From: Flavobacteriales bacterium
Lineage (GTDB): Bacteria > Bacteroidota > Bacteroidia > Flavobacteriales_D > CAJJDF01
Length of the DNA: 64,000 nt
Assembly: GCA_965660305.1 (NCBI GenBank)
Contig: CBFHZD010000001.1
Coordinates: forward strand, 115,040 to 179,039
Reading direction: 5' to 3'
Shown: in pieces, positions 1,752-21,923 of the stretch
Layout: every line of letters begins with the position of its first letter
How positions within the stretch are numbered: position 1 is the stretch's first letter
The notes under the pieces: generated by a model
What the model saw: only the letters and a program-made list of their open reading frames with translations
Databases searched by the model: none
Told to the model about the DNA's origin: nothing
Made by a program: the position numbers and the translations under genes

Positions 1752-1778
1752 CAGAAAAAACAGCGGTTCTAAAAAACA

Positions 1779-1792
1779 CTGATTTATATCAT
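1779..1792. promoter_or_regulatory. Candidate FNR/FixK-type operator cTGAT-ttat-ATCAt
   Basis: Both core half-sites of TTGAT-N4-ATCAA are present, 57 bp upstream of the ccoS ATG inside the 97-bp ccoI-ccoS gap. Confidence 0.4.
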
Positions 1793-1848
1793 ACTTTTTT
1801 GGTCCCTAACTCATTTCAGCACACTGCCCATACGCTTTACTTTGTGGT

Positions 1849-2013: not shown

Positions 2014-4152
2014 ATGGAAAAATTTAGTTATGACAATGGAATTGTAAGAAAGTTTAGCTACGCTACTCTTCTATTTGGAGTTGTGGGGATGACTGTTGGG
2101 CTCTGGATAGCTCTTGAATTAGCCTTCCCTTCGCTAAATGTTGCAAAATGGGTGAATTTTGGTCGTATGAGACCGCTTCATACCAATGCTATTATTTTTG
2201 CATTTGTTGGTAACGCTATGTTTGCCGGAATCTATTATTCTTTACAGCGACTACTCAAGGCTAGAATGGCAAGTGACTTGCTCAGTAATATCCACTTTTG
2301 GGGTTGGCAGTTTATAATTGTGTGTGCAGCCATTACACTTCCTTTAGGTATGAACTCAAGTAAAGAATATGCCGAGTTGGAATGGTGGATTGACATACTC
2401 ATTGCTATAGTTTGGGTAATTTTTGGCTGGAACATGTTCGCGACCATCTTAGAAAGAAGAGTGCAACATTTATACGTGGCCATTTGGTTTTACATCGCAA
2501 CGTTTGTTACGGTAGCCGTTCTTCACATTTTCAATTCCATAGAAATCCCAATTAGTTTTACTAAAAGTTACTCGTGGTATGCAGGGGTTCAAGATGCCCT
2601 AGTTCAATGGTGGTATGGTCACAATGCCGTAGCCTTTTTCTTAACTACCCCATTCCTAGGTTTAATGTACTATTATGTTCCCAAAGCGGCCAACAGACCG
2701 GTATATTCTTACAGGTTATCTATCATCCACTTCTGGACCTTGATTTTCCTTTACATTTGGGCTGGTCCTCACCACTTGTTGTATTCTTCTTTGCCAGATT
2801 GGGCTCAATCTCTAGGAGTTGTATTCTCTATTATGTTAATTATGCCATCTTGGGGAGGAATGCTAAATGGACTATTAACCTTGCGAGGAGCATGGGACAA
2901 AGTAAGAGAAAACCCTGTTCTTAAATTCATGGTAGTGGCAATTACAGCATACGGAATGTCCACTTTTGAAGGACCTATGCTCTCATTGAAGAACGTAAAC
3001 ATGATTTCTCACTTTACAGATTGGACTGTTGCTCACGTTCACGTGGGTGGATTGGGCTGGAACGGAATGATGACTTTTGGTATGTTCTATTTCATTTTCC
3101 CAAGAATATTCAACACAAAGTTATTCTCTATCAAATTAGCCAACACACACTTTTGGCTGGCCACCTTGGGTATCCTATTTTGGACTATCCCCATGTACTG
3201 GGCAGGATTTGTTCAAGGATTAATGTGGCAAGATTTTAAACCAGATGGAAACTTAGAGTATGAATTCATTGATACAGTAGCTCAATTAAGACCTATGTAC
3301 ATGTTACGTTCTTTTGGAGGACTGATTTACTTGACAGGAGCAATCATTGGAATATATAACTTATACAAAACTTCTAAAATTGGTAGTCTTATCAAAAATG
3401 AAGAAACCGAAGCACCAGCATTGGCTCCCGCTCATGCAGAAAACAATGAAGGTTGGCACAGAGTAATAGAAAGAAAACCTGTGAGAATGTTAATCTTTAG
3501 TTTGATTGTCATCTTAATTGGTGGAGTTGTGGAGATTATTCCTACCATGATTATCGAATCCAATGTACCTACAATTGCTGCAGTTAAACCCTACACTCCA
3601 TTGGAGCTGGAAGGAAGAGACATTTACATAAGAGAAGGATGTAATAACTGTCACTCACAAATGGTAAGACCTTTGCGATTCGAAACCAAGCGATACGGAG
3701 AATATTCCAAAGCCGGTGAGTTTGTGTATGACCATCCACATTTATGGGGAAGTAAACGAACTGGACCAGATTTGCACAGAGAAGGAGGAAAAAGAGGTGA
3801 CTCTTGGCATTACACACACTTCTTGAACCCAACACAACTGGAAGAGAAATCGATTATGCCAGCCTACGATTTCTTGATTGAAGAAGACCTAGACATGAGT
3901 TTACTGAAAAGAAAAATTGGCGCATTGAGAAGTATTGGAGTTCCTTACGAAGATGAACTGGAAGAAAAAGCGGAAGGAATGGCAATGGAGCAAGCAAAAG
4001 GAATTGCAAACAACATCATCACGGACTTATTTAAATTGGAAGGAGAAAAGAAAGAAGCTGCAGTAAATAATTTGAGTAAAAAAGAAGTAGTTGCAATTAT
4101 TGCATACCTACAACGATTAGGAACAGACATTAAAGTAAAAGAAAGAAACTAA
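2014..4152 (+). CDS. ccoNO: cbb3-type cytochrome c oxidase, fused subunits I and II (CcoN-CcoO)
   Basis: 712 aa. The polytopic haem-copper oxidase N-terminal part has conserved His residues (HVHVGGLGW). The C-terminal part has a TM anchor, a CNNCH haem c site and CcoO-like WGSKRTGPDL. Confidence 0.92.
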   Translation: MEKFSYDNGIVRKFSYATLLFGVVGMTVGLWIALELAFPSLNVAKWVNFGRMRPLHTNAIIFAFVGNAMFAGIYYSLQRLLKARMASDLLSNIHFWGWQFIIVCAAITLPLGMNSSKEYAELEWWIDILIAIVWVIFGWNMFATILERRVQHLYVAIWFYIATFVTVAVLHIFNSIEIPISFTKSYSWYAGVQDALVQWWYGHNAVAFFLTTPFLGLMYYYVPKAANRPVYSYRLSIIHFWTLIFLYIWAGPHHLLYSSLPDWAQSLGVVFSIMLIMPSWGGMLNGLLTLRGAWDKVRENPVLKFMVVAITAYGMSTFEGPMLSLKNVNMISHFTDWTVAHVHVGGLGWNGMMTFGMFYFIFPRIFNTKLFSIKLANTHFWLATLGILFWTIPMYWAGFVQGLMWQDFKPDGNLEYEFIDTVAQLRPMYMLRSFGGLIYLTGAIIGIYNLYKTSKIGSLIKNEETEAPALAPAHAENNEGWHRVIERKPVRMLIFSLIVILIGGVVEIIPTMIIESNVPTIAAVKPYTPLELEGRDIYIREGCNNCHSQMVRPLRFETKRYGEYSKAGEFVYDHPHLWGSKRTGPDLHREGGKRGDSWHYTHFLNPTQLEEKSIMPAYDFLIEEDLDMSLLKRKIGALRSIGVPYEDELEEKAEGMAMEQAKGIANNIITDLFKLEGEKKEAAVNNLSKKEVVAIIAYLQRLGTDIKVKERN

Positions 4153-4340: not shown

Positions 4341-5525
4341 ATGAAAAAAATGAAAAACTATACTAAAGGACTGGGATTATTAGCACTTACAAGTTTGTTC
4401 TCTCTATCTAGTTTTGCTGCTGCAACGAGCACCAATCAGTCTGGAGGATTATCCAATGAAACGGTCTTTTATATCTTGGCTATCCTTGCTGGTCTGTTAT
4501 TAGTAGGAATATTTTTTCTTACCAATTCGGTGAAAGACTTGATGAAAAGTGAATTTTACAAGAAAAAGGTATACGAACAAGAAAACAAAAAAAGAAAAAA
4601 AGGAACGCCAAGCGGAGCTGCTGTAATTGCACTTATGCTAGGTTTACCGTTCGTTTCATTTTCTCAAAACGCCTCAGTAGTTGCTGCCGAAAATAGCGAC
4701 ATTCCTCTATCGTGGGTATGGATGATGGTGATTATCAATGTGATTCTTTTGGGCGTTGTGTTCTACATCCGAAATTTATTCTTTCAAATATTGCGTTCTG
4801 TAAAACCTAAAAAAGTTAGTGTAAAAGAAGCTTCGGCACTGGCAGAACCGAGTAAAATAACAAAGATCTTAACTGATGCAGTTCCCTTAGATAAAGAACA
4901 TGAAATACTCATGGAGCATGAGTATGATGGCATTATGGAGCTGGATAATAACTTACCTCCTTGGTGGCTCTACAGTTTTTATGTTTCTATCGTGTTTGCT
5001 TTTGTTTATATCATTAATTATCACGTTATCGAAGCAACACCGCTTCAGCAAGAGGAATATGAACTTGCCATGGCCGAAGGCGAAAAAGAAGTAGCCGAGT
5101 ACTTGGCTTCTCAAAAATTAAATGTGGACGAAACCAATGTAGTGCTGTTGACAGATGCTGGTGATATTTCTAAAGGAAAAGGGATTTTTGAAAAAAAATG
5201 TGTCGCTTGTCACGGTAAACAAGGAGAAGGAGTAATTGGACCAAACCTAACGGATAAATATTGGTTGCACGGAGGCGATATTGCTTCTGTTTTTAAAATT
5301 GTGAAGTACGGAAAAGCCGAAAAAGGAATGCAAGCCTGGAAAGACGAATTGAACCCAATAGAAATGCAACAAGTTGCTTCTTTCATCAAAAGCATAGCGG
5401 GAACTGCTGTAGGGATAGGAAAAGCTCCACAAGGAGAGATTTTTGAGGAAGGAAAAAGCGACAATGCACCTTCGGATTCCACTGCCAACTCAACTGAAGA
5501 AATGGTTGAGATAGCTCAGAATTAA
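4341..5525 (+). CDS. ccoP: cbb3 oxidase subunit III (CcoP-like), monohaem, with about 190-aa N-terminal membrane extension
   Basis: CcoP N-terminal motif EHEYDGIMELDNNLPPWW is present. There is a single CVACH haem c site. Four hydrophobic segments precede the motif. Confidence 0.85.
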   Translation: MKKMKNYTKGLGLLALTSLFSLSSFAAATSTNQSGGLSNETVFYILAILAGLLLVGIFFLTNSVKDLMKSEFYKKKVYEQENKKRKKGTPSGAAVIALMLGLPFVSFSQNASVVAAENSDIPLSWVWMMVIINVILLGVVFYIRNLFFQILRSVKPKKVSVKEASALAEPSKITKILTDAVPLDKEHEILMEHEYDGIMELDNNLPPWWLYSFYVSIVFAFVYIINYHVIEATPLQQEEYELAMAEGEKEVAEYLASQKLNVDETNVVLLTDAGDISKGKGIFEKKCVACHGKQGEGVIGPNLTDKYWLHGGDIASVFKIVKYGKAEKGMQAWKDELNPIEMQQVASFIKSIAGTAVGIGKAPQGEIFEEGKSDNAPSDSTANSTEEMVEIAQN

Positions 5526-6968: not shown

Positions 6969-7403
6969 ATGAATTGGGGATGGAGAATTGCACTATTTTT
7001 GACATTATTTATTAGTTTCATCTTGTACATGGTGATTTACTCATTTGGACGAACAAATGATTTGGTTTCTGAAGATTATTACAACCAAGAAATCCAATAC
7101 CAAAAAAACATTGATGCACAAGAAAAGGGCTTGTATTTAGCAAAAGACATTCGCATTGATTCAAAAGAGAATGTAATCGAAATACAATTCCCAACAAGTT
7201 TCGAACGAGAAATTGAGAAAGGAGACATTTCATTTTACCGACCAGATAACGCAAAACTGGATCGCTCATTCCCAATGAAATTGGATCAAAACAACATTCA
7301 ATCCATCAACAAAAGTGAGATAGCTAGCGGATTTTATAAAATTACAATCCAGTTTATTCAGCATGGTGATTTACACCTAATCAACAAAGAAATGTGGTTA
7401 TGA
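6969..7403 (+). CDS. FixH-family protein
   Basis: 144 aa with an N-terminal TM helix followed by a soluble domain. Position after ccoG matches the FixGH arrangement. Confidence 0.6.
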   Translation: MNWGWRIALFLTLFISFILYMVIYSFGRTNDLVSEDYYNQEIQYQKNIDAQEKGLYLAKDIRIDSKENVIEIQFPTSFEREIEKGDISFYRPDNAKLDRSFPMKLDQNNIQSINKSEIASGFYKITIQFIQHGDLHLINKEMWL

Positions 7404-8140
7404 ATTTTGCCGAAGGTTTTTTAATTGGATTTCTAGGTTCTATCCATTGTATTGGGATGTGCGGACCTATTGCGCTGATGATTCCTACAAGTAAAAATCC
7501 TTTTCTCAAGTTTTTTCAAATTATCACTTATAACTTCGGGAGGGTACTCACCTATTCCCTTTTTGGATTGTTTTTTGGCCTAATTGGAGAATCTGTGAGA
7601 ATGATGGAGATTCAGCAAATTGTTTCCATCGTAGTAGGTATAATCCTAATTGTTATCGTTATTGGAACTTTATTTTCTTACCACAAAGCCGCAAACCAAG
7701 CCAACAAATTTGTAACCAAGTTATTTGACCCCATAAAAAAGCGGTTTGGTCAATTACTAGGCAAAGAAAGAAAAAACTTGCTTGCCATTGGAGTTCTAAA
7801 TGGTTTTTTACCCTGCGGACTTATCTATTTTGCATTGGCAGCTTCCATTACTTCCGAATCGATTGCCGGCAGCTCACTATTCATGGCAGCATTTGGAGTT
7901 GGAACTATTCCTGCCATGCTCCTATTTATGTATTTCAAAAGCGCAATTAATCAAAAAATAAACCTTCAAAAAGTGGTGCCTTACTTGCTTTTGGCTATGG
8001 GGATGTTGCTCGTAATGAGAGGAATGAACCTGGGGATTCCTTACATCAGTCCAAAAATCAAAAAGAATGCACAACAAGAGGCCACACTTGGCGGTTGTTG
8101 TAGTGCCGACAAACAATTTGAAACAGAATCATTGGATTAG
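7394..8140 (+). CDS. TauE/SafE- or DsbD_2-like polytopic membrane protein of the cco cluster
   Basis: 248 aa, about 6 TM segments, HCIGMCGP motif in TM1. Overlaps the FixH-like gene by 10 nt. Confidence 0.6.
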   Translation: MVMNFAEGFLIGFLGSIHCIGMCGPIALMIPTSKNPFLKFFQIITYNFGRVLTYSLFGLFFGLIGESVRMMEIQQIVSIVVGIILIVIVIGTLFSYHKAANQANKFVTKLFDPIKKRFGQLLGKERKNLLAIGVLNGFLPCGLIYFALAASITSESIAGSSLFMAAFGVGTIPAMLLFMYFKSAINQKINLQKVVPYLLLAMGMLLVMRGMNLGIPYISPKIKKNAQQEATLGGCCSADKQFETESLD

Positions 8141-9186
8141 TATTTATACTTTCTTAATTCTTGTTCTTCTTTAATGTAAATTGTTTTTCCTTCAGCTGAA
8201 ATCAATCCATCTTTTTTGAATTCGCTCAAGGTTCTAATCACTGATTCAGTAGATGTTCCAGCAATATTAGCCAAGTCTTCTCTTGGTATTTGTAGCCCCT
8301 TTGTATAATCCTGACTGTATTTATCAAAGTACTTAATCAATCCATCTGCCACTCTCTTTTTTACTGAATTATAAGCCAAATTCAATAGTTCTTCCTCTTT
8401 CTCAATTACCTCTTTGGATAATATCTTGATGAATTCATTCGCTACTTCTCTTTTGTTTTTTATAAGGCTGTAAAATTCTTCTCGAGGAATTAATTCTACT
8501 TGAGTTTCCAATACGGCAATGGCTGAATCTGAATATTCATCGTCTTTCAACAACGAATGATAACCAAAAAACTCATTCTCTTTGTACAGACCAGTTATCA
8601 ATTCTTTACCATCCTCGTTGGTCTTAAAAGTTTTCACCTGTCCTTTTTTGATGTAGTACAAATAAACCGGAGAACCATATTGCAGGTAAATAAAGTTTTT
8701 CGCCCTGAACACCTTATTTTTTTTGTTCTTGAATAGTTCGTGGTTTTCATCCACATTTTCCATGTCAAACTCTCCATCTTCCTCTGGGCTGGAAAGGTTG
8801 TTCATCGCCTTTTTTAATTTACTACTTTTACTCAGCCTTCTTTCCACAGATTTTATCAGATCCATTTCCTCAAAAGGCTTTGTGAGGTAATCATCTGCTC
8901 CTAATTCCATTCCTTTTCTAAAGTCCTGCGCATCAGATTTTGCGGTGAGAAAAATAAATGGAATTGTAGAGGTTTTTGGATCAATGCTTAAATAATACAG
9001 CACATCGTATCCATCCATTTCGGGCATCATTATATCACAGATAATTAAATCAGGAAGTATTTCCTTTGCCACCCTTACACCTTCTTTTCCATTTGCAGCT
9101 CCGTTTACTTTATATCCAGCTAGTTCCAGAAGTTCTGTTGTGTTTTCCAAAACATCCTTGTTATCTTCAATAATTAGTATGTTCAT
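8137..9186 (-). CDS. Response regulator: REC + cNMP-binding-like barrel + Crp/Fnr-type HTH
   Basis: REC domain with DIMMPEMDG and a TAK...DDYLTKPF signature. C-terminal HTH REDLANIAGTSTESVIRTLSEFKKDG resembles the FNR recognition helix. Confidence 0.85.
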   Translation of the reverse strand: MNILIIEDNKDVLENTTELLELAGYKVNGAANGKEGVRVAKEILPDLIICDIMMPEMDGYDVLYYLSIDPKTSTIPFIFLTAKSDAQDFRKGMELGADDYLTKPFEEMDLIKSVERRLSKSSKLKKAMNNLSSPEEDGEFDMENVDENHELFKNKKNKVFRAKNFIYLQYGSPVYLYYIKKGQVKTFKTNEDGKELITGLYKENEFFGYHSLLKDDEYSDSAIAVLETQVELIPREEFYSLIKNKREVANEFIKILSKEVIEKEEELLNLAYNSVKKRVADGLIKYFDKYSQDYTKGLQIPREDLANIAGTSTESVIRTLSEFKKDGLISAEGKTIYIKEEQELRKYKY

Positions 9187-9192
9187 TCTCTT

Positions 9193-10710
9193 TTATTTTA
9201 TTGGTATTTTTATGAAAATTGTTGTCCCTACGTTTTCAATGCTTTTTAAAGAAAGTTCTCCTTTCAACAAAGAAATATAACTTTTTACAATATTCAAACC
9301 TAAACCTGTACCTTGAATATTTTCTGCGTTCTCTGCTCTATAAAACCTATCAAACAGTTTAGACTGGGCCAATTCAGGAATACCAATCCCTTTGTCAGTC
9401 ACATTTATCTCTAAGTATTGTTTGGTACCTGCAACATCCATGACCACGTCTTTTTCTGAGTATTTCAAGGCATTGGACAGTATATTTGACAACACTACTC
9501 TCAGTATTTTTTGATCTAATTCCAAATTTTCCTCACCGGCAAAGTTGACAATTATTTCTCTATTTTCACCTTTCAGTCCATCTGTTTCAGCTATCACCTC
9601 AGCTAATAAGTCATGAATATTGGTCATTTCTGGGTTTACCGCTATCATGTTTTCTTCAATTCTGCTAATGGTAAGCGTATCGTTCAGCATGTTGGTCAAG
9701 TTCCTGATGTTCTTCTTTATTTTTTCAAAATGTGCTTTTTTCTTTTCCTCATTTCCAAGTTCGTCATACTTTTCTATCAACGAAATGGAAGACAAAATTG
9801 TACTCAATGGAGTTCTGAACTCATGAGATGCCATGGAAACAAACTGTGACTTCATCTCACTCAATTCCTTTTCCTTAAGAAGCGATTGCTTCATTTTTTC
9901 TTCTATATTTTTTACTTTAGTTACGTTATTCTCTACGATCAAAATATGTGAAACAGCTGTTTCTTTTTCATAGACAAGCGGAACAACATGAGCTTGGTAA
10001 ACACTTCTTCTTTTTTTGATTTCAAAACTCACAACCTCACCCTCAAAAGCTTTTTTTATTTTTTCTTTTACCTCTTCCTTATTGTCGCTATTGAAAGAAT
10101 CTAAATAGTTTTTATTCAATAAATATTTACTCTTCACCCCACTTTTGGTGAGCTCCTCACCTTCAGCAAAAGTAAATTTAAGATCCCTGTCCAACACACA
10201 AATAATACCATTGGGAAAATTTTTTGAAATGAGACTAAATAAAACTTGGTTTTCATTTAATTTCCTTGTTCTCTCCATTACTTTTACTTCCAACTCTGTA
10301 TTCAAGTCTTGAATAGCAACCTCTTGAGATTTTCTTGTGGTGATGTCAGTCAAAAGAGCCATTACAAAAAATTCATCCTCAATGGTCATGTGATTCAAGC
10401 TAATCTCAATCGGAAATTTATCCCCGTTTTTTTTCAACCCATACAAATCTCTTCCTGCTCCCATTTGTTTTCGCTCAGGTTTTTTCGCATAGCCTTCACG
10501 ATTACCAACGTGACTTTTTTTGTACTCATTTGGAAGTAAAACCTCAATTTTCTGTTCCAAAAGTTCCTCTTTTTCGTAGCCAAATATCCTTGTGATTGAT
10601 TCATTTACCATTTTTATTTCACCTTGTTTATTACAAACTAAAATCCCCTCTGTGGAGGACTCAAAAATAAGCTTGTAAACATCTATGTGGCTAAACTTTT
10701 TTTCTTCCAT
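9193..10710 (-). CDS. Soluble PAS-PAS sensor histidine kinase (HisKA + HATPase_c)
   Basis: No TM segment. N-terminal PAS has a FixL-like H...GxGR...G..FP signature. H-box is SHEFRTPLS. N, G1 and G2 boxes are present (NALKYS, DKGIGI, GTGLGL). Confidence 0.88.
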   Translation of the reverse strand: MEEKKFSHIDVYKLIFESSTEGILVCNKQGEIKMVNESITRIFGYEKEELLEQKIEVLLPNEYKKSHVGNREGYAKKPERKQMGAGRDLYGLKKNGDKFPIEISLNHMTIEDEFFVMALLTDITTRKSQEVAIQDLNTELEVKVMERTRKLNENQVLFSLISKNFPNGIICVLDRDLKFTFAEGEELTKSGVKSKYLLNKNYLDSFNSDNKEEVKEKIKKAFEGEVVSFEIKKRRSVYQAHVVPLVYEKETAVSHILIVENNVTKVKNIEEKMKQSLLKEKELSEMKSQFVSMASHEFRTPLSTILSSISLIEKYDELGNEEKKKAHFEKIKKNIRNLTNMLNDTLTISRIEENMIAVNPEMTNIHDLLAEVIAETDGLKGENREIIVNFAGEENLELDQKILRVVLSNILSNALKYSEKDVVMDVAGTKQYLEINVTDKGIGIPELAQSKLFDRFYRAENAENIQGTGLGLNIVKSYISLLKGELSLKSIENVGTTIFIKIPIK

Positions 10711-10713
10711 TTA

Positions 10714-12036
10714 TTATATCATTCCTCTTGATTTTAACTCAAGATATTTATTAATTGTATTTACGGATAATTCTTCTGGTTTGGTCAAAATAGATTGGAT
10801 TCCAAATTTTCGAAGTTCCTGAACCATTCTTTTTTTATCGTTATTAAATTTTCGGGCAAAAGTTTGTAGATAAATATCAGAAACTGTTTCACTTTTCATT
10901 TCAGAAGCCTTAGAAATCTCTGTATTTTCAAAAAAGACAACCACAATGAGGTAGCTCTTATTGAGTCTCCTTAAAATCGGCAAAGCTCTCGTTAGTGAAT
11001 AAAAGCTCTCGAAGTTTAAATACATAATGAGTAAACTTCTTCCCCTTACAGTTCTTTTTATGCTCTGATAAAGTAACTCGTAGTTAGCCTCCAAAAAAGC
11101 AGTTTTTTGGTTGTATAGCACCTCCATCATTTTTTTCAAATGCGTAGCGCTTCTCGATGCTTTTACTTGTGCACCAATTTTGTCAGAAAAAGTGATCAAC
11201 CCAGCTTTATCCCCTTTTTTCAAAGCGATATTACTCATGACCAAAGTGGAATTTATCGCATGATCCAATAGGGTCAGCCCTTCAAAAGGCATTTTCATCG
11301 ACCTACTTTTATCTATCACACAATACACTTGCTGCGATTTCTCATCTTGGTATTGATTCACCATCAACTTATTTCTACGACTAGTTGCCTTCCAATTGAT
11401 ATGTCGATAATTGTCTCCTTGCACGTAATCCTTAATTTGTTCAAATTCATTGGTATTTCCCAGCCTTCTCATTTTTTTTACTCCTTGGTTTTGAGAAGAT
11501 TTAGTAAAAACCTGAAACTCATGTTTGCGCATTTGCAACACCGAAGGATACACTCCTATTTCTAGAGGAATTTCTATTGTAAATCTTCGTTCTAACAATC
11601 CCAATACTGAAGAAACGAATACATTAACATTTCCAAAACTATACAACCCTCTTTCTGTGGGTTTGATGGTGTACAACAAAGTCCTATTTCCTTCAGGATT
11701 CAAAGAAAACTTAAAAGAACTATCTCTCCTCTGAAGTTGATAAGGCAATTCGTCTATCACCTCAATATCTAGCGGTACAGTATAACTAGAAGAGACAGTG
11801 AGCTCTATGTTGTTTTCATCTCCCAAACTCAAGGTTTCGTTCAATTTTCGCGTTACAGAGACTTCTTGTTTTCGGATAAAAAGGATAAGAATATCTACCA
11901 AAACAAGAGCAAACAAAACATAGAGCAAAACCTTGAAAATAGGAAATAGCACATTCCACCCAAAGCTCAAGGCAAAACCAACGGCTAGCAGGAGCAGGAA
12001 AAGAAAGATTCTATTTTTTAAAAACAAGGATTTCAT
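10714..12036 (-). CDS. DUF58 family protein (membrane-anchored, vWA-like with DxSxS)
   Basis: Two N-terminal TM helices. DUF58 signature YVQGDNYRHINWKATSR is followed by VIDKSRSM (DxSxS). Follows the MoxR gene. Confidence 0.8.
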   Translation of the reverse strand: MKSLFLKNRIFLFLLLLAVGFALSFGWNVLFPIFKVLLYVLFALVLVDILILFIRKQEVSVTRKLNETLSLGDENNIELTVSSSYTVPLDIEVIDELPYQLQRRDSSFKFSLNPEGNRTLLYTIKPTERGLYSFGNVNVFVSSVLGLLERRFTIEIPLEIGVYPSVLQMRKHEFQVFTKSSQNQGVKKMRRLGNTNEFEQIKDYVQGDNYRHINWKATSRRNKLMVNQYQDEKSQQVYCVIDKSRSMKMPFEGLTLLDHAINSTLVMSNIALKKGDKAGLITFSDKIGAQVKASRSATHLKKMMEVLYNQKTAFLEANYELLYQSIKRTVRGRSLLIMYLNFESFYSLTRALPILRRLNKSYLIVVVFFENTEISKASEMKSETVSDIYLQTFARKFNNDKKRMVQELRKFGIQSILTKPEELSVNTINKYLELKSRGMI

Positions 12037-12047
12037 TCACCAAATAA

Positions 12048-13145
12048 TTAACGAGGCACTTCAATTTTATGTATAATTTCATTGATGACTGAGGTAGGGT
12101 TCATTCCCTCCATTTCTGCCTCTGGGGTCAAAATAATTCTGTGATTTAGAACTTGTGGCGCAATCGTTTGAATATCGTCTGGAGTTATGAAATCTCTTCC
12201 TCGTATAGCAGCCAACGCCTTGGAGGCTTTTGCCATTGCCAATGATGCTCTAGGCGAAGCTCCTAAATAAAGTTTAGCATGATTTCGGGTATTGTGCGTA
12301 ATTTGAGCTATGTAGGACAGTAATTGTTCTTCTATTTTCACTTCATTTACCAACTCTTGAATTTTTTGCAAATCTGTTTTGGTAAACACCTTTTGGATAG
12401 TAGCTAAATCGGGCGAAAGAGAAGTATTCTTGTAACGAGCAAGAATTTGTTGTTCTTCTGCCAAAGTAGGATATTCCAGATTTATTTTAAATAAAAACCG
12501 ATCCAATTGTGCCTCGGGCAAACTGTACGTTCCTTCTTGCTCCACTGGGTTTTGTGTTGCAATTATCAAAAAAGGATACTCCATTTCATACTGCACTCCT
12601 TCAAAGGTTATTTGTCTTTCTTCCATTACCTCAAACAAAGCAGATTGTGTTTTTGCCGGAGAACGATTTACCTCATCAATCAATATTATATTTGAAAAAA
12701 TTGGCCCTTTATGAAAAGTAAACTCCGAAGATTTCATATTAAAAACAGAAGTCCCAATGATATCGGATGGCATCAAATCAGGGGTAAATTGGATTCTAGA
12801 AAAATCAGTATCCAAACACCTCGAAAGCACTTTGGCAGATAAAGTTTTAGCAATTCCAGGAACTCCTTCCAACAAAATATGACCATTCGTAAAGATTCCA
12901 ATAAGCAATAAATCAATAACATCTTGCTGACCTATAATAAAACCGCTGGCTTGAGCCCTGGCCTCCTCCACTTTTTGTTTTACAAAAGACAACTCAAGCG
13001 AAGATTCAAACTGAAGATTCTGCTCAGTCGATTCAGGAATAACCTGGGATTCATTCTCATTCTGGTTTTCCAAAGGTTTCTCTGCCTCCGGCTTTACCTC
13101 CGTTTCCGAAACTTGTTCTGGTTCTTTATTCATTTCTTCTTCCAT
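12048..13145 (-). CDS. MoxR-family AAA+ ATPase
   Basis: Walker A GVPGIAKT and Walker B ILIDEVNR are present, with MoxR-like ATQNPVEQEGTYSLPEAQLDRF. Has an acidic extension of about 55 aa at the N-terminus. Confidence 0.9.
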   Translation of the reverse strand: MEEEMNKEPEQVSETEVKPEAEKPLENQNENESQVIPESTEQNLQFESSLELSFVKQKVEEARAQASGFIIGQQDVIDLLLIGIFTNGHILLEGVPGIAKTLSAKVLSRCLDTDFSRIQFTPDLMPSDIIGTSVFNMKSSEFTFHKGPIFSNIILIDEVNRSPAKTQSALFEVMEERQITFEGVQYEMEYPFLIIATQNPVEQEGTYSLPEAQLDRFLFKINLEYPTLAEEQQILARYKNTSLSPDLATIQKVFTKTDLQKIQELVNEVKIEEQLLSYIAQITHNTRNHAKLYLGASPRASLAMAKASKALAAIRGRDFITPDDIQTIAPQVLNHRIILTPEAEMEGMNPTSVINEIIHKIEVPR

Positions 13146-13152
13146 GTGCTTG

Positions 13153-14418
13153 TTATTTACAGTGTTTATAAAAATATTCTATCTTTTTGTGCAGTTCTAT
13201 GAGTTCTTGGGATGAAAAACTATAGGACTTTTTTGCTCTTTTAAACTCCTTAAAAATCTCTTCCACTTTCTCTTTTTTGATGTCCGATTTTAGTGCAATC
13301 AGTTCAATAAATTCTGGTGTAAATGTGGCCGAGGAAAGGTAATATTTATCCTTCACAAAGTTTAAAAAACTCTGTCGATAGTGCTTTATAAATTTATAAT
13401 GTTTTTCTTGCCTCAGGTACAGTAGGCTCACATTCTCGACAAACTCTAGCGAGCTATTTGTATTGGGTTCAATAGTCGGGATAATTTCTTGCCTTCGCTT
13501 TACCTTGAATAAAACATAGACGATTAATCCCAAAACCAAAATGAGATAAGCATGGCGTAAATTTCTATCGTTTAGAATATACTGAATGGGACTTTCTTTT
13601 ATGATTTCATCGGAATTCGTAGTGTTTTCTTCAGTAAACTCATCCCATCTATTCGTGTGATTGTGCCAGTAATATTTCCCTTGAGGTAGGTGAGAAAAAA
13701 CCCGTTGCGCATATTCCAATCCGTCTTCATTAAACAATGATGCATTGTACAATAGCTCTGGCAACGAGTGCAAGTACAAAGTCCCTTGTCCATAATTTAG
13801 TTTCAAAAAAACGGGACCATCTAAATATGTTTCTGTGCCCAACACAGCTATTTCATTGATTTCACCAGTAAAATTTTCTAGATTAAAATAGTTCCAAGAT
13901 CGGTAATCCTTAAAATCATTGTCATATTGCGCATAAACATAAGGCAAATACAACGACAGTTCTGGATGAGTAAAATCAACGCTTATTTCGTCATTATAAT
14001 GCTCTGCTGTCATACTGGAGTAAGCAAAATAATTGGAAAAAACAGAATTGAAATCACGAACAGAAACCAACGCAGAATTCCCATTACTGACAAAACGCAG
14101 CAAAGTGTCAATGGACTTTGGAGATAAATTTATATCACTATCTATAAGCAAATAAGTGGCTGGCTTTTCGTTGAATGAGGTTGAAAGTGACGTATCCAAC
14201 TCATCATGTACAAATTGTAGCGTATCAATAAGCGGGTACTCTTTTAGCAATTCTTCCAAAATATGGAGTCCATCGCTATTCAAGTATTTCTGATACAAAG
14301 CTTTCTCACTTTCGCTCAGTTCAGCCGACTTAGAATCGGAAGGAAATAGAAAGTAAAAACCCACCATGAGCAACAGCACAACAGCAGCCAGTATCGATAT
14401 TTTGACTTTGTTACTCAT
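13153..14418 (-). CDS. Membrane protein, DUF4350-like (name from remembered synteny, not verified)
   Basis: N-terminal signal anchor, about 270-aa external domain, a second TM (AYLILVLGLIVYVLF) and a cytoplasmic tail. Occupies the DUF4350 slot of MoxR/DUF58 clusters. Confidence 0.5.
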   Translation of the reverse strand: MSNKVKISILAAVVLLLMVGFYFLFPSDSKSAELSESEKALYQKYLNSDGLHILEELLKEYPLIDTLQFVHDELDTSLSTSFNEKPATYLLIDSDINLSPKSIDTLLRFVSNGNSALVSVRDFNSVFSNYFAYSSMTAEHYNDEISVDFTHPELSLYLPYVYAQYDNDFKDYRSWNYFNLENFTGEINEIAVLGTETYLDGPVFLKLNYGQGTLYLHSLPELLYNASLFNEDGLEYAQRVFSHLPQGKYYWHNHTNRWDEFTEENTTNSDEIIKESPIQYILNDRNLRHAYLILVLGLIVYVLFKVKRRQEIIPTIEPNTNSSLEFVENVSLLYLRQEKHYKFIKHYRQSFLNFVKDKYYLSSATFTPEFIELIALKSDIKKEKVEEIFKEFKRAKKSYSFSSQELIELHKKIEYFYKHCK

Positions 14419-15289
14419 CCAGTTTTTTGACTAAATTTTTAAATCTGGGTTCAACTTGCTGGAACTCCATTTTATTCAATTGTCTTTCCCCGTACCATAC
14501 TATTTCATAGACAGAAACACATTTCTCGAAGGATTCAAAGTGAGGATTACCTCTCATTTCTGATAAAAATGAAAAATTTGTTTTTTCCTTCTCCCAAGAA
14601 ATATAATTCTTGTTGACTAACCCACGAATTACATATATAAAATAGACTCTAATGGCTTCGCGATAATCCTCATGTTGAAGCGCTTCTTCCAACAAAAGCT
14701 CAAGCTCAGTTTTTGGAATCTCTGTTGGTAATATTGAGTCTAAGTCTCGAATAATCTTTCTATTTCCTTTTGTTTCTTTTATTTTATTAAAAAACAAGAA
14801 AAATACTAAAGCTGTCAACGCCAAAACAACCAACACCAATATAACATTAGACCAAAATGGTGAAATGTGACCTGGATTGAAAACGTCTCCCGAATCGTTT
14901 GAGCTTCGCTGGTAGTTTTCCTTTTCTTTAGGAAGTCTTTTTATCTCTTTCGAATTCTTTTCCCTCCAATATCTTCTAAAAGCTCTTTGAGATTTACGGT
15001 ATGGGTTATCTTCTTGAGAAAGAGAGCTTCCATCCTGCCCTTCATACTCAACTCCCGAAATCTCATTGACAATATTCATCCTAATGCGCTCCCACTTTTG
15101 CTTATCAAATGGAACTATAGAAATTGAATCATTTAAATATCGTTTGTGAGCCTCGCTTTTTTCGTAATTGTTGTTGTAATTTATTTCCTCCAAATACTCA
15201 TCTATATCAAACTCAGCTTGTCCGTAAACTGGGTTCTGACCAACACAATACACTAAAAACAAAATGATATGTAATAGGTTCACTTTCAT
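14411..15289 (-). CDS. DUF4129-like membrane protein
   Basis: Signal peptide, a central TM (VILVLVVLALTALVFFLFF) and a C-terminal helical region (AIRVYFIYVIRGLVNKNYISWEKEKTN) resembling DUF4129. Confidence 0.5.
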   Translation of the reverse strand: MKVNLLHIILFLVYCVGQNPVYGQAEFDIDEYLEEINYNNNYEKSEAHKRYLNDSISIVPFDKQKWERIRMNIVNEISGVEYEGQDGSSLSQEDNPYRKSQRAFRRYWREKNSKEIKRLPKEKENYQRSSNDSGDVFNPGHISPFWSNVILVLVVLALTALVFFLFFNKIKETKGNRKIIRDLDSILPTEIPKTELELLLEEALQHEDYREAIRVYFIYVIRGLVNKNYISWEKEKTNFSFLSEMRGNPHFESFEKCVSVYEIVWYGERQLNKMEFQQVEPRFKNLVKKLDE

Positions 15290-17163
15290 TTATTTGATTC
15301 AAAATGTTTATTTCCCTTTCCAAAATCTTTTAACCTAGATTTTAACCCAAGTGCATTCTGCCTGTCGTGAATACTCATGTACTGAAAACTAATTGCTGCC
15401 ACAATAAGAGGCAATAAAACCTGAACCAAAACCAAGATAAGAAAAGCAGAAATGAAATTCTTGATAGCCAAAAAATCCTCAAATACAGTAATGGTATGCC
15501 AGTCGATAATTTTATCAATTACCAACGTTTTGATATCAACCCCCGGAAGAAATGGATTGTAATATACCCAAGAAAAAATGTAAGTCAATCCACAGATCAA
15601 AAGGAACGAACCAAGAGTTTGCCCCCAATCTTTTCTTCCGTATTTCAATCCAGTAGAAATCCCTTGTAAGAAACTCATTTCACCCGAAATACTAGGATAA
15701 AACAACAGGACTAGAAAGGGTGAACAAAAAATAATTACCCAGAAAAAACTACTAGGAACAAAGTACAAAAACCCGAGTAAGCCCGCTACCAATGGAATTG
15801 ATTTCAGTATATAAGGCCAAATTTCTTTCAGCCAAAGCGACCAATAACTCTTATTTTTTGGGTTTCCAATGTAAGTTAAACAATGAATGACAGTAGCAAT
15901 ATTTAAGGAAAGCAACAGGCCTATTACCGCAAACGAAAGCCAAGAAAAATGAATAGAAAGCCCAAATACCAACTCGAAGATTTCACTCGTTTCGAGGTAA
16001 TAATCTGAGTAAGGAGAAGAATAAAAAATCCAACCTAAATACACCAAAGAAAGTGGAGCAATAATGAGAAAAACAACTTTAGCAATGCTTGGAAAAAACA
16101 ATTTATAAAAACGGAATGTATCGTAAAACACCTGAGTCAAGTTTCGGATGGCATATTTTTTCAGTTTCCTGGATTCTATGTGTACAGGCTTTTCTTCAAT
16201 TCGGCTTTGATTGGCAAATTTACGTCCTAAATAAAAAGGATAAAACACGAAATACCCCAGAATAAAAGCGAGTGAAAATAGAATAATTAGCCATTTTGCT
16301 AAATCGGGCATTTCGGTGTGGCGTGTCACATATCCTTCCAAAAAACCTGCCACTATAAATAAAGGGATAGTTCCCAATAGAATATTAATTCCACGTTTTG
16401 CATGAATTTGAAGAGACTGAGTTCGAGTAAGGGTTTTGGGGAATAAGAGTCCATTCCCCATAACGATTCCCGCAGCACCGGCAATGACAATAGCAGAGAT
16501 TTCGAGTGTTCCATGAATCCAAATCACCAAAAACGAAGTTAGCAACAACCCTTTTATGTAAAAGAAATACTGAAAATCACCAAGCATAAATCCATTACTC
16601 ACCAATAAAAACGCAGAACCTACTGAGAAAAATATCCCCATAATAAAGACTAGGAAAGCAACGCGGATGTTGTTGATGGTAATTTGTAAAAACATATCCC
16701 CTTCATTCATCTGTTTATAAACAGCCATGGGGTCTCCCTTGTTGATGTTATCAATGGTCATGTCCACATAATAATCACCCAAAATAATGCGCGAAAACTC
16801 GGGATCAATGTAAGATGAAACAGCCCCAATCAACACTGCAATAAAAAAGAAAAGAAAAGCAGTAAGAAAAGCCTTTCTACTTCGGTATATTTCCAAAGGC
16901 AACTTATGTTTCCAAAACTGCAAGAACGTGGAAGAAAATGAATTCTTAGTCTTTGAGAAAGAAAGAAAAACTTTTTGAGCTAAATAATTAAGGTAAACTC
17001 TCACCGACCTTTTTGGATAAAAAGTTTTGGCGTAGGACAAATCCTCTGTAATTTCAACAAAGAGTTCGCTTAACTTGTCCGGATCTTTTGATTTATTTTG
17101 AGACAATTTCTCGAACTCCTGCCACTTTTCCTTATTTTTTTCTATGAAATCGGTCTCCTTCAT
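15286..17163 (-). CDS. SpoIIM-like (DUF95) polytopic membrane protein with extra C-terminal polytopic half
   Basis: 625 aa. The N-terminal half has a cytoplasmic helical domain plus TM bundle, as in stage II sporulation protein M family proteins. The C-terminal ~300 aa contain further TM helices. Confidence 0.5.
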   Translation of the reverse strand: MKETDFIEKNKEKWQEFEKLSQNKSKDPDKLSELFVEITEDLSYAKTFYPKRSVRVYLNYLAQKVFLSFSKTKNSFSSTFLQFWKHKLPLEIYRSRKAFLTAFLFFFIAVLIGAVSSYIDPEFSRIILGDYYVDMTIDNINKGDPMAVYKQMNEGDMFLQITINNIRVAFLVFIMGIFFSVGSAFLLVSNGFMLGDFQYFFYIKGLLLTSFLVIWIHGTLEISAIVIAGAAGIVMGNGLLFPKTLTRTQSLQIHAKRGINILLGTIPLFIVAGFLEGYVTRHTEMPDLAKWLIILFSLAFILGYFVFYPFYLGRKFANQSRIEEKPVHIESRKLKKYAIRNLTQVFYDTFRFYKLFFPSIAKVVFLIIAPLSLVYLGWIFYSSPYSDYYLETSEIFELVFGLSIHFSWLSFAVIGLLLSLNIATVIHCLTYIGNPKNKSYWSLWLKEIWPYILKSIPLVAGLLGFLYFVPSSFFWVIIFCSPFLVLLFYPSISGEMSFLQGISTGLKYGRKDWGQTLGSFLLICGLTYIFSWVYYNPFLPGVDIKTLVIDKIIDWHTITVFEDFLAIKNFISAFLILVLVQVLLPLIVAAISFQYMSIHDRQNALGLKSRLKDFGKGNKHFESNK

Positions 17164-21871: not shown

Positions 21872-21901
21872 AAGCGATTCACATGAATCGCTTTTTTTTT
21901 G
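21872..21901 (+). terminator. Rho-independent terminator
   Basis: AAGCGATTC-acat-GAATCGCTT followed by T9. Confidence 0.8.
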
Positions 21902-21909
21902 AATCAAAC

Positions 21910-21923
21910 GTGATAATTATCAC
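21910..21923. promoter_or_regulatory. Perfect 14-bp palindrome GTGATAATTATCAC (TGAT-N4-ATCA) upstream of icd
   Basis: Self-complementary 14-mer ending 97 bp upstream of the icd ATG. Its core is identical in form to the box at 1779-1792. Confidence 0.4.

What the first reader, a model, noticed from the sequence alone, without database searches (positions are those of the whole stretch)
8137..10710. FixL-like PAS kinase plus a REC-Crp hybrid regulator: a FixLJ-FixK cascade compressed into two proteins
The kinase has no TM segment. Its first PAS domain aligns without gaps to my recollection of the Bradyrhizobium FixL haem pocket:
- FixL: NVNILMPEPDRSRHDSYISRYRTTSDPHIIGIGRIVTGKRRDGTTFPMHLSIGEM
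- here: KIEVLLPNEYKKSHVGNREGYAKKPERKQMGAGRDLYGLKKNGDKFPIEISLNHM
The columns for proximal His200, Y207, G217, G219, R220, G224, G229, F232-P233 and S237 are identical. R206 is not conserved.

The partner protein fuses three parts. The first is REC (Asp in ICDIMMPEMDG). The second is a cNMP-type barrel lacking the cassette Arg (YSDSAIA). The third is an HTH whose helix TSTESVIRTL has the FNR-type E...R and no CRP-type Arg before the Glu. It has no FNR Cys cluster, so control would come through phosphorylation. The pair is convergent to the cbb3 cluster.
Basis: partly seen in the sequence, partly recalled or inferred. Interest (0 to 1): 0.6.

Follow-up and report, generated by a model that had tools for sequence, protein, structure and literature searches.

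The report
FixL-like kinase with REC-Crp regulator
Next to the high-affinity (cbb3) oxidase genes sits a two-gene switch, a probable haem-based oxygen-sensing kinase and a regulator that fuses a phosphorylation receiver to a Crp/Fnr-type DNA-binding protein; the pair is conserved in hundreds of Bacteroidota species, appears to control their low-oxygen genes, and no published study of it was found.

Summary
ORF 9193-10710(-) is a soluble PAS / weak PAS / HisKA / HATPase kinase. Its first PAS domain matches haem-PAS proteins best, by sequence (RmFixL E 3.5e-12, gapless) and by predicted fold (BjFixL TM 0.84). The candidate proximal His67 is invariant in 67 of 67 orthologues. ORF 8137-9186(-) is REC + cNMP-like barrel + Crp HTH. 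It has all REC catalytic residues, Tyr in place of CRP's cAMP contacts, and no Cys cluster.

The pair is not peculiar to this window. At least 596 species genomes, almost all labelled Bacteroidota, encode the fused regulator. A kinase lies directly upstream in 77 of 82 loci, and cco genes lie within 10 kb in about half.

De novo motif discovery in other genomes gives (A/C)TGA-N6-TCA(T/G) boxes, often as tandem pairs exactly 22 bp apart, with the proximal box 29 bp from the -7 promoter element. They lie upstream of ccoS, usp, hsp20, a HemN-like gene, the nos cluster and the kinase gene.

Haem binding, phosphotransfer and DNA binding remain untested. No paper describing the system was found. Verdict: a new variant of a known kind, of moderately high interest.

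The parts
9193..10710 (-). Soluble sensor histidine kinase, 505 aa (PAS1 / weak PAS-like / HisKA / HATPase_c)
   Evidence: ORF; Pfam; no TM segment; orthologues at 39-100% identity
10339..10677 (-). PAS1 domain (aa 12-124), FixL/EcDOS-like candidate haem-binding PAS
   Evidence: phmmer against PDB: the top 14 hits are all haem-PAS proteins, gapless for the alignments shown. AF2 pLDDT 87.5. Foldseek: the top 24 hits are haem-PAS, BjFixL TMq 0.84.
10510..10512 (-). His67 codon, candidate proximal haem ligand (= BjFixL H200, RmFixL H194, EcDOS H77)
   Evidence: Aligned; invariant in 67 of 67 Bacteroidota orthologues and in alignment A2; lies on the modelled F-alpha helix 61-76
10450..10452 (-). 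Arg87 codon, candidate distal ligand-sensing Arg (= BjFixL R220, EcDOS R97)
   Evidence: Aligned. Across the family: R 31, M 23, L 5, K 3.
9901..10263 (-). Middle domain (aa 150-270), weak PAS-like
   Evidence: PAS_4 E 4e-4, 21 bits, below the 23.1-bit cut-off; no significant PDB sequence match
9652..9855 (-). HisKA (DHp) domain with phospho-acceptor His296 (codon 9823-9825) in SHEFRTP
   Evidence: Pfam; H-box position; nearly invariant in A2
9199..9516 (-). HATPase_c catalytic domain with N box NILSNALKY, G1 DKGIG and G2 GTGLGL
8137..9186 (-). Hybrid response regulator, 349 aa: REC + cNMP-like barrel + Crp-type wHTH
   Evidence: A family of at least 150 full-length 50%-identity clusters, with 2095 clusters at E<=1e-30.
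8845..9180 (-). REC domain (aa 3-114); phospho-acceptor Asp51 at 9034-9036
   Evidence: Pfam E 5e-29. D8, D51 and K103 invariant and T81 nearly invariant in A1.
8740..8811 (-). Variable, predicted-disordered linker (aa 126-149) between the REC and Crp modules
   Evidence: AF2 pLDDT below 50 for 126-149; variable columns in A1
8455..8712 (-). cNMP-binding-like beta-barrel (aa 159-244) lacking the cAMP contacts: Y209 for CRP E72, Y218 for CRP R82
   Evidence: Pfam; BLASTP against E. coli CRP; both Tyr invariant in A1
8146..8355 (-). Crp-type wHTH (aa 278-347); recognition helix TSTESVIRTL at 8227-8256 with E314 and R318
   Evidence: Pfam; alignments to CRP and FNR; E314 and R318 invariant
1776..1795 (.). 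Predicted regulator box ACACTGATTTATATCATACT (core TGA-N6-TCA at 1780-1791), 63 nt upstream of the ccoS ATG
   Evidence: Best hit in the whole window (15.1 bits) to a PWM built only from other genomes. Conserved in L084 and L085. Lies 52 bp from the -7-like element, the distal-type position.
1838..1844 (+). TACTTTG, a probable Bacteroidota -7 promoter element for ccoS-ccoNO
   Evidence: TTACTTTG is conserved in L084 and L085
1849..8140 (+). Predicted target operon: ccoS, fused ccoNO, small ORF, ccoP, ccoG, ccoH (FixH), DsbD_2
   Evidence: Pfam. Boxes occur upstream of ccoS in 23 of 27 related loci, but upstream of ccoI in only 2 of 29 and ccoG in 3 of 22.

Best explanation
This is a two-component low-oxygen switch. 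The cytoplasmic kinase carries a FixL/EcDOS-type PAS domain that most likely holds haem b on His67. Arg87 would be the distal ligand-sensing residue.

By analogy with FixL, loss of O2 from the haem activates autophosphorylation on His296. The phosphoryl group then passes to Asp51 of the adjacent regulator.

The regulator is a complete Crp/Fnr-type module (barrel, dimerisation helix, wHTH) with a receiver domain where FNR has its Fe-S cluster and where CRP relies on cAMP. Phosphorylation, rather than a cofactor or a nucleotide, therefore switches on DNA binding.

The active regulator binds (A/C)TGA-N6-TCA(T/G) palindromes placed about -41.5 and/or -63.5 from the start site and activates transcription. 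In this genome the target is ccoS-ccoNO(Q)P-GH. In other Bacteroidota the targets also include usp, hsp20, a HemN-like gene, nos genes and the kinase operon itself.

Shown here: the domain architectures, the catalytic residues, the specific haem-PAS similarity, the conserved gene pairing and cco linkage, and the motif with its stereotyped geometry.

Inferred: haem binding, O2 as the signal and its polarity, phosphotransfer, and that this regulator is the protein that binds the box.
For: Sensor domain:
- PAS1 hits only haem-PAS proteins at the top of the PDB, by sequence and by fold.
- His67 is invariant in 67 of 67 orthologues. Position 81 (= BjFixL H214, RmFixL Arg) is Arg or Lys in 66 of 67. 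The pocket hydrophobic residues are retained.
- H-box His296 and the N, G1 and G2 boxes are intact.

Regulator:
- D8, D51 and K103 are invariant and T81 nearly so.
- There are no cAMP contacts and no Cys cluster.

Conservation:
- A kinase lies directly upstream of the regulator in 77 of 82 loci, and FixL-like PAS1 is present in 67.
- cco genes lie within 10 kb in 23 of 47 loci with full flanks, in Cytophagales, Chitinophagales, Flavobacteriales and Saprospirales.
- L003 reads HK-RR-usp-cytochrome c-nosZLDFY-ccoI-ccoS.

Motif:
- TGA-N6-TCA occurs upstream of ccoS in 23 of 27 loci, of usp in 26 of 45 and of the kinase in 42 of 73, against ccoI 2 of 29 and ccoG 3 of 22.
- Across whole loci there are 78 box pairs at exactly 22 bp, against 0 to 10 at any other spacing.
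- The proximal box lies 29 bp from TAnnTTTG in 16 of 23 tandem pairs.
- The window's top PWM hit is the ccoS box. It is conserved in relatives at 91% and 62% regulator identity.
- Genes behind tandem boxes are typical of hypoxia regulons.
Against: - Nothing has been tested biochemically.
- BjFixL R206 is absent (G73). The distal Arg is replaced by Met or Leu in about 40% of family members, so ligand chemistry may differ within the family.
- In the window's lineage the pair has no promoter of its own. It sits behind MoxR-DUF58 genes, and no box lies upstream of that gene string.
- The window has only one full box. The proximal position keeps only a TCA half-site.
- Box density upstream of the targets is only 1.3 to 2 times that of all intergenic DNA in these loci, although that background includes the targets themselves.
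- Another Crp/Fnr protein encoded elsewhere in these genomes could be the real binder. Covariation between helix and box is weak.
- The invariant Tyr209 and Tyr218 in the barrel could mark a second, unknown ligand input.
Confidence: 0.62

Rival explanations
1. This is a genuine two-component pair controlling the same regulon, but PAS1 does not bind haem. It senses another cue, such as a small metabolite or redox state through a different cofactor, or it serves only as a dimerisation module. The similarity to FixL would then reflect common PAS ancestry.
For: R206 is missing and the distal position 87 varies (R, M, L, K). LOV-type PAS domains also score as good structural matches, with E about 1e-9 to 1e-8. 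Many PAS domains are mis-assigned by sequence. PF24820 (a diguanylate-cyclase sensor PAS) also gives a sub-threshold hit.
Against: All of the top 14 sequence hits and top 24 fold hits are haem-PAS. The His that ligates iron in FixL and EcDOS is invariant across about 70 orthologues whose PAS domains are only 26-53% identical. A basic residue is kept at the propionate-contact position 81.
Confidence: 0.2
2. The TGA-N6-TCA boxes are bound by a different, classical Crp/Fnr-family regulator encoded elsewhere. The REC-Crp protein binds another motif, or acts in the window on the MoxR-DUF58 gene string that it is co-transcribed with.
For: The box core is shared by the sites of many Crp/Fnr proteins. 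In the window the pair is embedded in a seven-gene string with MoxR and DUF58 that is conserved in L084 and L085. Helix-box covariation is only weak.
Against: Boxes sit upstream of the HK-RR operon itself in 42 of 73 loci, which fits autoregulation. They also sit next to the pair on usp and cco genes. The preferred base before TGA is A or C, neither T as for FNR nor G as for CRP. That fits a helix with T313 and I317 in place of V208/S212 or R180/G184. The MoxR linkage is lineage-specific, since most of the 82 loci lack it. No Crp paralogue is present in the window.
Confidence: 0.12
3. The regulator integrates two inputs: phosphorylation of the REC domain, and an unknown small ligand bound in the cNMP-like barrel. 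That would be neither cAMP nor an Fe-S cluster. It could be a haem or another effector, as some Crp/Fnr-family gas sensors such as CooA use (from my own knowledge). The kinase would then be only one of the controls.
For: The barrel is fully retained and carries family-invariant residues at the former nucleotide site: G208, Y209, Y218 and A222.
Against: No ligand-binding motif is recognisable. FixK-type proteins also keep an empty barrel. There is no conserved His or Cys in the barrel.
Confidence: 0.15

Closest known systems
FixL-FixJ-FixK (FixK2) cascade of Alphaproteobacteria (Sinorhizobium, Bradyrhizobium, Caulobacter)
   Same: It has a haem-PAS histidine kinase as the O2 sensor. The final effector is a Crp/Fnr-type protein with no Cys cluster that binds a TGA-N6-TCA-core palindrome upstream of the cbb3 oxidase (fixNOQP/ccoNOQP) and fixGHIS genes. 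The regulon is a low-oxygen one.
   Different: There are two proteins here instead of three. The receiver is fused directly to the Crp/Fnr module, so there is no FixJ (REC with a LuxR-type HTH) and no transcriptional relay through fixK. The box flanks are (A/C)TGA rather than TTGA. The boxes are often tandem, 22 bp apart. The phylum is Bacteroidota. BjFixL R206 is absent.
FNR (E. coli) and FnrL/FnrP
   Same: It has the same barrel, dimerisation helix and wHTH. The recognition helix has Glu and Arg at matching positions. The inferred activation positions, near -41.5 and -63.5, are class II and class I positions, and the function is control of high-affinity oxidase and anaerobic genes.
   Different: There is no N-terminal Cys4 [4Fe-4S] sensor. 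A REC domain occupies the N-terminus, so O2 is sensed by a separate kinase. S212 is replaced by I317 and V208 by T313.
DosS/DosT-DosR (DevSR) of Mycobacterium
   Same: A haem-based kinase with a cognate response regulator controls a hypoxia regulon rich in usp and hsp20 (alpha-crystallin) genes.
   Different: In Dos the haem sits in a GAF domain, not a PAS domain, and DosR has a NarL/LuxR-type output. There is no relationship beyond REC and the kinase core.
EcDOS/DosP and the FG214 haem-PAS one-component regulator (PDB 1v9y, 10jx)
   Same: They share the same haem-PAS subfamily. His on the F-alpha helix and Arg on the G-beta strand align.
   Different: The outputs differ: a c-di-GMP phosphodiesterase in DosP, and a directly fused HTH in FG214. 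EcDOS uses Met95 as its distal ligand. About a third of the Bacteroidota kinases have Met at the position of R87, but the window protein has Arg.

Membership tests
FixL-type haem-PAS sensor kinases | PAS fold with the proximal His on the F-alpha helix | tested here: met
   H67 aligns with BjFixL H200, RmFixL H194 and EcDOS H77 without gaps. It is invariant in 67 of 67 orthologues and lies on modelled helix 61-76. Fold TMq to 8js5 is 0.84.
FixL-type haem-PAS sensor kinases | Distal Arg on the G-beta strand (BjFixL R220) that couples O2 binding to the FG loop | tested here: met
   R87 aligns with R220. Across the family the position is R 31, M 23, L 5, so the feature is met in the window but is not universal.
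FixL-type haem-PAS sensor kinases | Basic residues contacting the haem propionates (BjFixL R206 and H214) | tested here: inconclusive
   R206 corresponds to G73, so it is lost. H214 corresponds to K81, which is R or K in 66 of 67 family members.
FixL-type haem-PAS sensor kinases | Binds haem b, and kinase activity is inhibited by O2 | not testable with these tools
   Needs spectroscopy and autophosphorylation assays.
FixL-type haem-PAS sensor kinases | HisKA and HATPase_c transmitter with H, N, G1 and G2 boxes | tested here: met
   H296, NILSNALKY, DKGIG, GTGLGL.
FixLJ two-component system | The cognate regulator is FixJ (REC with a LuxR/NarL-type HTH), which activates fixK | tested here: not met
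   The adjacent regulator is REC + cNMP_binding + HTH_Crp_2, so this is not a FixLJ system in the strict sense.
Response regulators (REC superfamily) | Acidic pocket, phospho-acceptor Asp, and conserved Thr/Ser and Lys | tested here: met
   E7/D8, D51, T81 and K103; D8, D51 and K103 are invariant and T81 nearly invariant in A1. Pfam Response_reg E 5e-29.
Crp/Fnr superfamily | cNMP-type beta-barrel, long dimerisation helix and C-terminal wHTH | tested here: met
   Pfam PF00027, PF13545 and PF00325. BLASTP gives CRP 4e-18 and FNR 4e-16. The AF2 model has a barrel at 156-234, a helix at 246-290 and an HTH at 302-325.
CRP (cAMP receptor) subfamily | cAMP-contacting Glu72 and Arg82-Ser83, and Arg180 in the recognition helix | tested here: not met
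   E72 is Y209, R82 is Y218 and R180 is T313.
FNR subfamily | N-terminal Cys cluster ligating a [4Fe-4S] centre | tested here: not met
   There is a single Cys (C50, inside REC).
FixK subfamily | A cofactor-less Crp/Fnr protein that binds TTGAT-N4-ATCAA upstream of fixNOQP | tested here: inconclusive
   The predicted box shares the TGA-N6-TCA core and the location upstream of ccoS-ccoNO. However, the flanks are (A/C)TGA, binding is untested, and the protein carries an extra REC domain.

The most novel reading that the evidence does not exclude
The REC-Crp hybrid would be the master low-oxygen regulator of aerobic and microaerobic Bacteroidota, filling the roles of FNR, FixK and DosR. It would work by a mechanism not described for the Crp/Fnr fold. 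Phosphorylation-driven REC-REC contacts would join two Crp-type dimers into a dimer of dimers on tandem boxes exactly two helical turns (22 bp) apart, at -63.5 and -41.5. The split at the distal position of the haem pocket (Arg or Met) would tune different lineages to O2 or to redox/NO.
Probability: 0.3. Interest if true: 0.75.

Novelty: new variant of a known kind. Interest (0 to 1): 0.6.

Why it matters
From general knowledge, how Bacteroidota outside the gut anaerobes sense oxygen and switch on cbb3 oxidase, N2O reductase and stress genes is largely unknown. These are abundant soil, marine and wastewater bacteria, and many carry clade II nosZ.

This pair gives a concrete candidate that is conserved across the phylum, with at least 596 species in one scan. 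It comes with a predicted sensor residue, phospho-sites, DNA motif, promoter geometry and regulon, and each of these can be tested directly.

It also shows a third way of controlling the Crp/Fnr fold. Where CRP uses a nucleotide and FNR uses a metal cluster, this regulator would use a receiver domain. It is also a natural shortening of the FixL-FixJ-FixK relay, which is useful for thinking about how regulatory cascades evolve and for building compact O2-responsive circuits.

Tried and rejected
- A canonical FNR/FixK box search (TTGAT-N4-ATCAA, up to 1 mismatch) gave 8 hits, the number expected by chance (8.3), and none near 1779 or 21910. I replaced it with de novo motif discovery.
- The icd box (21907-21926) is rejected as a conserved site. 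It scores 11.6 bits, within shuffle noise. Only 2 of 76 IDH upstream regions have a box at 9 bits or more, against 3 of 76 coding controls, and the closest relative has lost one half-site.
- The other window PWM hits (42504, 41114, 50007 and others) all lie inside ORFs and were dismissed.
- Autoregulation in the window lineage was not found. There is no box upstream of the seven-gene string or inside DUF58.
- A homology search with the PAS1 domain alone returned only 3 proteins, probably a word-index limitation. I used the full-length kinase instead.
- The RgzAB preprint on F. johnsoniae describes a GAF hybrid kinase and is unrelated. The CRP/FNR meta-regulon paper, the nosZ clade II paper and the F. 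columnare genomics paper do not mention this architecture. Eight literature searches found no description of the system.
- Helix-to-box covariation (T313 against K313, and C against A at position -1) shows only a weak trend and is not corrected for phylogeny.
- The middle kinase domain has no significant PDB match and only a sub-threshold PAS_4 hit.
- The full-length regulator AF2 model has pTM 0.41, so it says nothing about the arrangement of REC relative to the Crp module.

Full report
**What is in the window**

Two adjacent minus-strand ORFs occupy exactly the stated coordinates: 9193-10710 (505 aa) and 8137-9186 (349 aa), separated by 6 nt.

Pfam assigns PAS (12-124), HisKA (286-353) and HATPase_c (399-504) to the first ORF. 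It assigns Response_reg (3-114), cNMP_binding (159-244) and HTH_Crp_2 (278-347) to the second. No NCBIfam equivalog reaches its cut-off for either protein, so current annotation rules would give only generic names.

The kinase has no hydrophobic stretch; its maximum hydropathy over 19 residues is 1.23. Its middle region (about 150-270) is only a sub-threshold PAS_4 match and has no PDB sequence relative. The catalytic motifs are intact: H296 in SHEFRTP, plus the N, G1 and G2 boxes.

On the plus strand, converging on the regulator's stop codon, lies a cbb3 oxidase cluster:
- ccoI, a P-type ATPase cut by the window edge
- ccoS
- a fused ccoNO
- a 54-aa ORF
- ccoP
- ccoG
- ccoH (FixH)
- a DsbD_2 membrane protein

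**The haem-pocket claim**

I repeated it with HMMER against the real PDB sequences.

The 14 best hits for PAS1 are all haem-PAS proteins, and the alignments shown contain no gaps. They are RmFixL 1d06 (E 3.5e-12), BjFixL (1.2e-9 to 2e-8), EcDOS/DosP (3.7e-9 to 1.2e-7) and the haem-binding PAS of FG214 (PDB 10jx, 1e-7). The first non-haem PAS (YtvA LOV) follows at 2e-6.

R206 corresponds to G73.

An AlphaFold model built on 41 orthologues is confident (pLDDT 87.5). It shows a PAS fold with a long F-alpha helix (61-76) that carries H67, followed by a lower-confidence FG loop. In a Foldseek search of the PDB, the top 24 matches are FixL, EcDOS/DosP and FG214 haem domains (BjFixL TMq 0.84, E 1.5e-11). 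They rank ahead of the LOV domains.

In 67 orthologous kinases taken from other species, with PAS domains 26-53% identical to this one:
- The His is invariant (67 of 67).
- The position matching BjFixL H214 and an RmFixL Arg is Arg or Lys in 66.
- G84, P100 and S104 are nearly invariant.
- The distal Arg position splits into R 31, M 23, L 5 and K 3.

The sequence evidence for a haem-PAS is therefore specific and goes beyond a generic 'H...GxGR...FP' pattern. Haem binding itself has not been shown.

**The regulator**

In an alignment of 14 family members at 50-100% identity, the REC pocket residues (E7/D8, D51, K103) are invariant and T81 is nearly invariant.

Compared with E. coli CRP, the cAMP contacts E72 and R82 are both Tyr here (Y209 and Y218, invariant in the family). 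R180 is T313, while E181 and R185 are kept as E314 and R318. Compared with FNR, V208/E209/S212/R213 correspond to T313/E314/I317/R318, and there is no N-terminal Cys cluster. The CRP and FNR reference sequences were typed in from my memory.

An AlphaFold model gives confident REC and Crp modules joined by a disordered linker of about 25 residues. It gives no reliable arrangement between the domains (pTM 0.41).

**This is a large family, not a local oddity**

- All 8000 scored candidates for the regulator passed E<=1e-10. The 120 best listed are nearly all full-length REC-cNMP-HTH proteins at 50% identity or more, and sources name them only 'response regulator' or 'CRP-like cAMP-binding protein/CheY-like'.
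- An exhaustive HMMER search of 1.84 billion cluster representatives lists 150 hits, almost all full-length, at E below 1e-64, and finds 2095 clusters at E<=1e-30.
The 80 best come from Cytophagales, Chitinophagales, Sphingobacteriales, Flavobacteriales and Saprospirales.
- The kinase family is equally abundant, and no source name calls it FixL.

**Conserved pairing and neighbourhood**

Across 82 loci:

| Feature | Loci |
|---|---|
| Kinase directly upstream of the regulator | 77 of 82 |
| FixL-like PAS1 present | 67 of 82 (many exceptions are contig ends) |
| Any cco gene within 10 kb | 39 of 82 |
| cco genes within 10 kb, full-flank loci only | 23 of 47 |
| Usp genes present | 33 of 82 |
| nosZ present | 3 of 82 |

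For a cco cluster of about 8 kb in genomes of several megabases, that linkage is far more than chance would give.

One 5.2-Mb genome reads HK-RR-usp-cytochrome c-nosZ-nosL-nosD-nosF-nosY-ccoI-ccoS.

In the window's own lineage, the pair forms the last two genes of a tight seven-gene string: a SpoIIM/DUF8413-like gene, a 292-aa ORF, DUF4350, MoxR, DUF58, HK and RR. Relatives at 91% and 62% regulator identity keep this string and its convergence on the cco cluster. The more distant relative adds a usp gene after the regulator.

**The DNA motif**

I then looked for palindromes enriched upstream of cco, usp and kinase genes in the other genomes. ATGA-N6-TCAT, TGAT-N4-ATCA, CTGA-N6-TCAG and TGAC-N4-GTCA came out on top. 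They are all registers of one core, TGA-N6-TCA.

| Upstream of | Loci with the core |
|---|---|
| ccoS | 23 of 27 |
| usp | 26 of 45 |
| kinase gene | 42 of 73 |
| ccoI | 2 of 29 |
| ccoG | 3 of 22 |

Raw density is only 1.3 to 2 times that of all intergenic DNA in these loci, and that background includes the targets. The decisive statistics are geometric:
- Across whole loci, 78 box pairs are exactly 22 bp apart, against 0 to 10 at any other spacing up to 60 bp. About 0.6 would be expected from the overall box density (my estimate). In the target regions, 45 of 66 pairs are at 22 bp.
- In 16 of 23 tandem pairs, the proximal box centre is exactly 29 bp upstream of the first T of the Bacteroidota -7 element TAnnTTTG. 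Single boxes sit at 28-29 or 51-52 bp.

Assuming the usual position of that element (from general knowledge), the boxes would lie near -41.5 and -63.5. These are the class II and class I positions used by CRP/FNR-type activators.

The symmetrised consensus is (A/C)TGA(T/C)-N4-(A/G)TCA(T/G). The base before TGA is A or C, neither T as in FNR sites nor G as in CRP sites. That fits the unusual T313 and I317 helix.

**Back in the window**

I built a PWM from those other genomes only. Its best match in all 64 kb is ACACTGATTTATATCATACT at 1776-1795 (15.1 bits). This lies in the 97-nt gap upstream of ccoS, 63 nt from the ATG. The chance that the top hit lands in that gap is about 0.15% (my estimate, 97 of 64,000 positions).

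The box is conserved in L084 (ACACTGATTAATATCATACT). In L085 the corresponding box is AACATGATATCTATCATGTT (15.7 bits), and L085 also has a 15.6-bit box upstream of its usp gene.

The window box is 52 bp from a conserved TACTTTG, so it occupies the distal-type position. The proximal position keeps only a TCA half-site.

The second one (21907-21926, gTGAT-N4-ATCAc, upstream of the monomeric isocitrate dehydrogenase gene) scores 11.6 bits, which is within shuffle noise. It is not conserved: 2 of 76 IDH upstream regions from related metagenomic contigs carry a box at 9 bits or more, against 3 of 76 coding controls. The closest relative (87% IDH identity) has lost one half-site. That part of the proposal is not supported.

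**The regulon**

Tandem boxes occur upstream of 70 of 1158 ORFs in the loci. Besides the kinase (15 cases) and usp (8 cases), Pfam identifies the downstream genes as:
- DoxX
- Hsp20
- a ChaN-type haem-binding protein
- a CBS pair
- a radical-SAM HemN-like enzyme
- a D-2-hydroxyacid dehydrogenase
- RIC (ScdA_N + hemerythrin)

The cytochrome c gene heading a nos cluster also lies behind tandem boxes, as do three small families with no Pfam match.

From general knowledge of the FixK, FNR and DosR regulons, this is what a hypoxia or nitrosative-stress regulon looks like. None of these genes occurs in the window's 64 kb.

**Mechanism and rivals**

The best-supported model runs as follows:
1. Deoxy-haem on PAS1 activates the kinase.
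2. His296~P is transferred to D51.
3. The phosphorylated Crp-type regulator binds the boxes.
4. It activates ccoS-ccoNO(Q)P-GH.

The exact 22-bp tandem spacing, together with a receiver domain on a protein that already dimerises through its long helix, suggests a further idea. REC-REC contacts may link two dimers on adjacent boxes. This is inference only.

Three rivals remain:
- PAS1 might not bind haem. R206 is absent and the distal residue varies.
- A different Crp/Fnr protein might be the box binder. Helix-box covariation is only weak.
- A second ligand might act through the conserved Tyr-lined barrel.

**Comparison with what is known, and novelty**

The pair works like FixLJ-FixK and, in regulon content, like DosST-DosR. 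It is not a FixLJ system in the strict sense, because the partner is not a FixJ-type regulator. It is not CRP (no cAMP contacts) and not FNR (no Cys cluster).

Eight full-text literature searches and five papers inspected found no description of this architecture or pair. Databases carry it only under generic names.

I rate it a new variant of a known kind. All the domains and the overall logic are familiar. What appears undescribed is the receiver-Crp fusion as output, its stereotyped tandem-box promoter architecture, and its role as a phylum-wide candidate oxygen switch.

Noticed in passing
window 8137-17163 (-); L084 and L085: In this lineage the kinase and regulator are the last two genes of a tight seven-gene string, with 3- and 6-nt gaps at the last two junctions: a SpoIIM/DUF8413-like membrane protein, a 292-aa ORF, DUF4350, a MoxR AAA+ ATPase, DUF58, HK and RR. 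The string is conserved in relatives at 91% and 62% regulator identity. Most other Bacteroidota have the pair standing alone. No regulator box precedes the string.
   Followed up: partly
PAS1 position 87 (window codon 10450-10452) across 67 loci: The distal position of the haem pocket, equivalent to BjFixL R220, splits within the family: Arg 31, Met 23, Leu 5, Lys 3. This suggests subfamilies with different ligand chemistry, possibly a Met-ligated six-coordinate haem as in EcDOS.
   Followed up: no
L003-L085, upstream of ccoS, usp and HK genes: TGA-N6-TCA boxes occur as tandem pairs exactly 22 bp apart: 78 pairs, against 0 to 10 at any other spacing. The proximal box lies exactly 29 bp from the TAnnTTTG -7 element in 16 of 23 cases. 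I know of no description of such a fixed two-site architecture for a Crp/Fnr regulator in Bacteroidota.
   Followed up: partly
e.g. L008 12437-12814, L019 11341-11778 and L008 13668-14000: Three small conserved protein families (about 125, 145 and 110 aa) sit behind tandem boxes in several genomes; the two tested (125 and 145 aa) have no Pfam match and the 110-aa family was not scanned. They are candidate new members of the low-oxygen regulon.
   Followed up: no
window 21874-21926: The palindrome GTGATAATTATCAC upstream of the monomeric isocitrate dehydrogenase gene lies immediately after a terminator-like hairpin (AGCGATTC-acat-GAATCGCT followed by a run of T). It is not conserved upstream of IDH in relatives.
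   Followed up: yes
window 2014-4152 (+) and 4341-5525 (+): ccoN and ccoO are fused into one 712-aa ORF (COX1 + FixO). ccoP (394 aa) carries its FixP_N motif only at residues 188-231, which implies a long N-terminal extension. A 54-aa ORF with no Pfam hit lies between them, in the position where ccoQ would be expected.
   Followed up: no
window 7394-8140 (+) and 8137-9186 (-): The DsbD_2 gene that ends the cco cluster and the regulator gene converge, and their 3' ends overlap by 4 nt. No terminator-like hairpin was found between them.
   Followed up: partly
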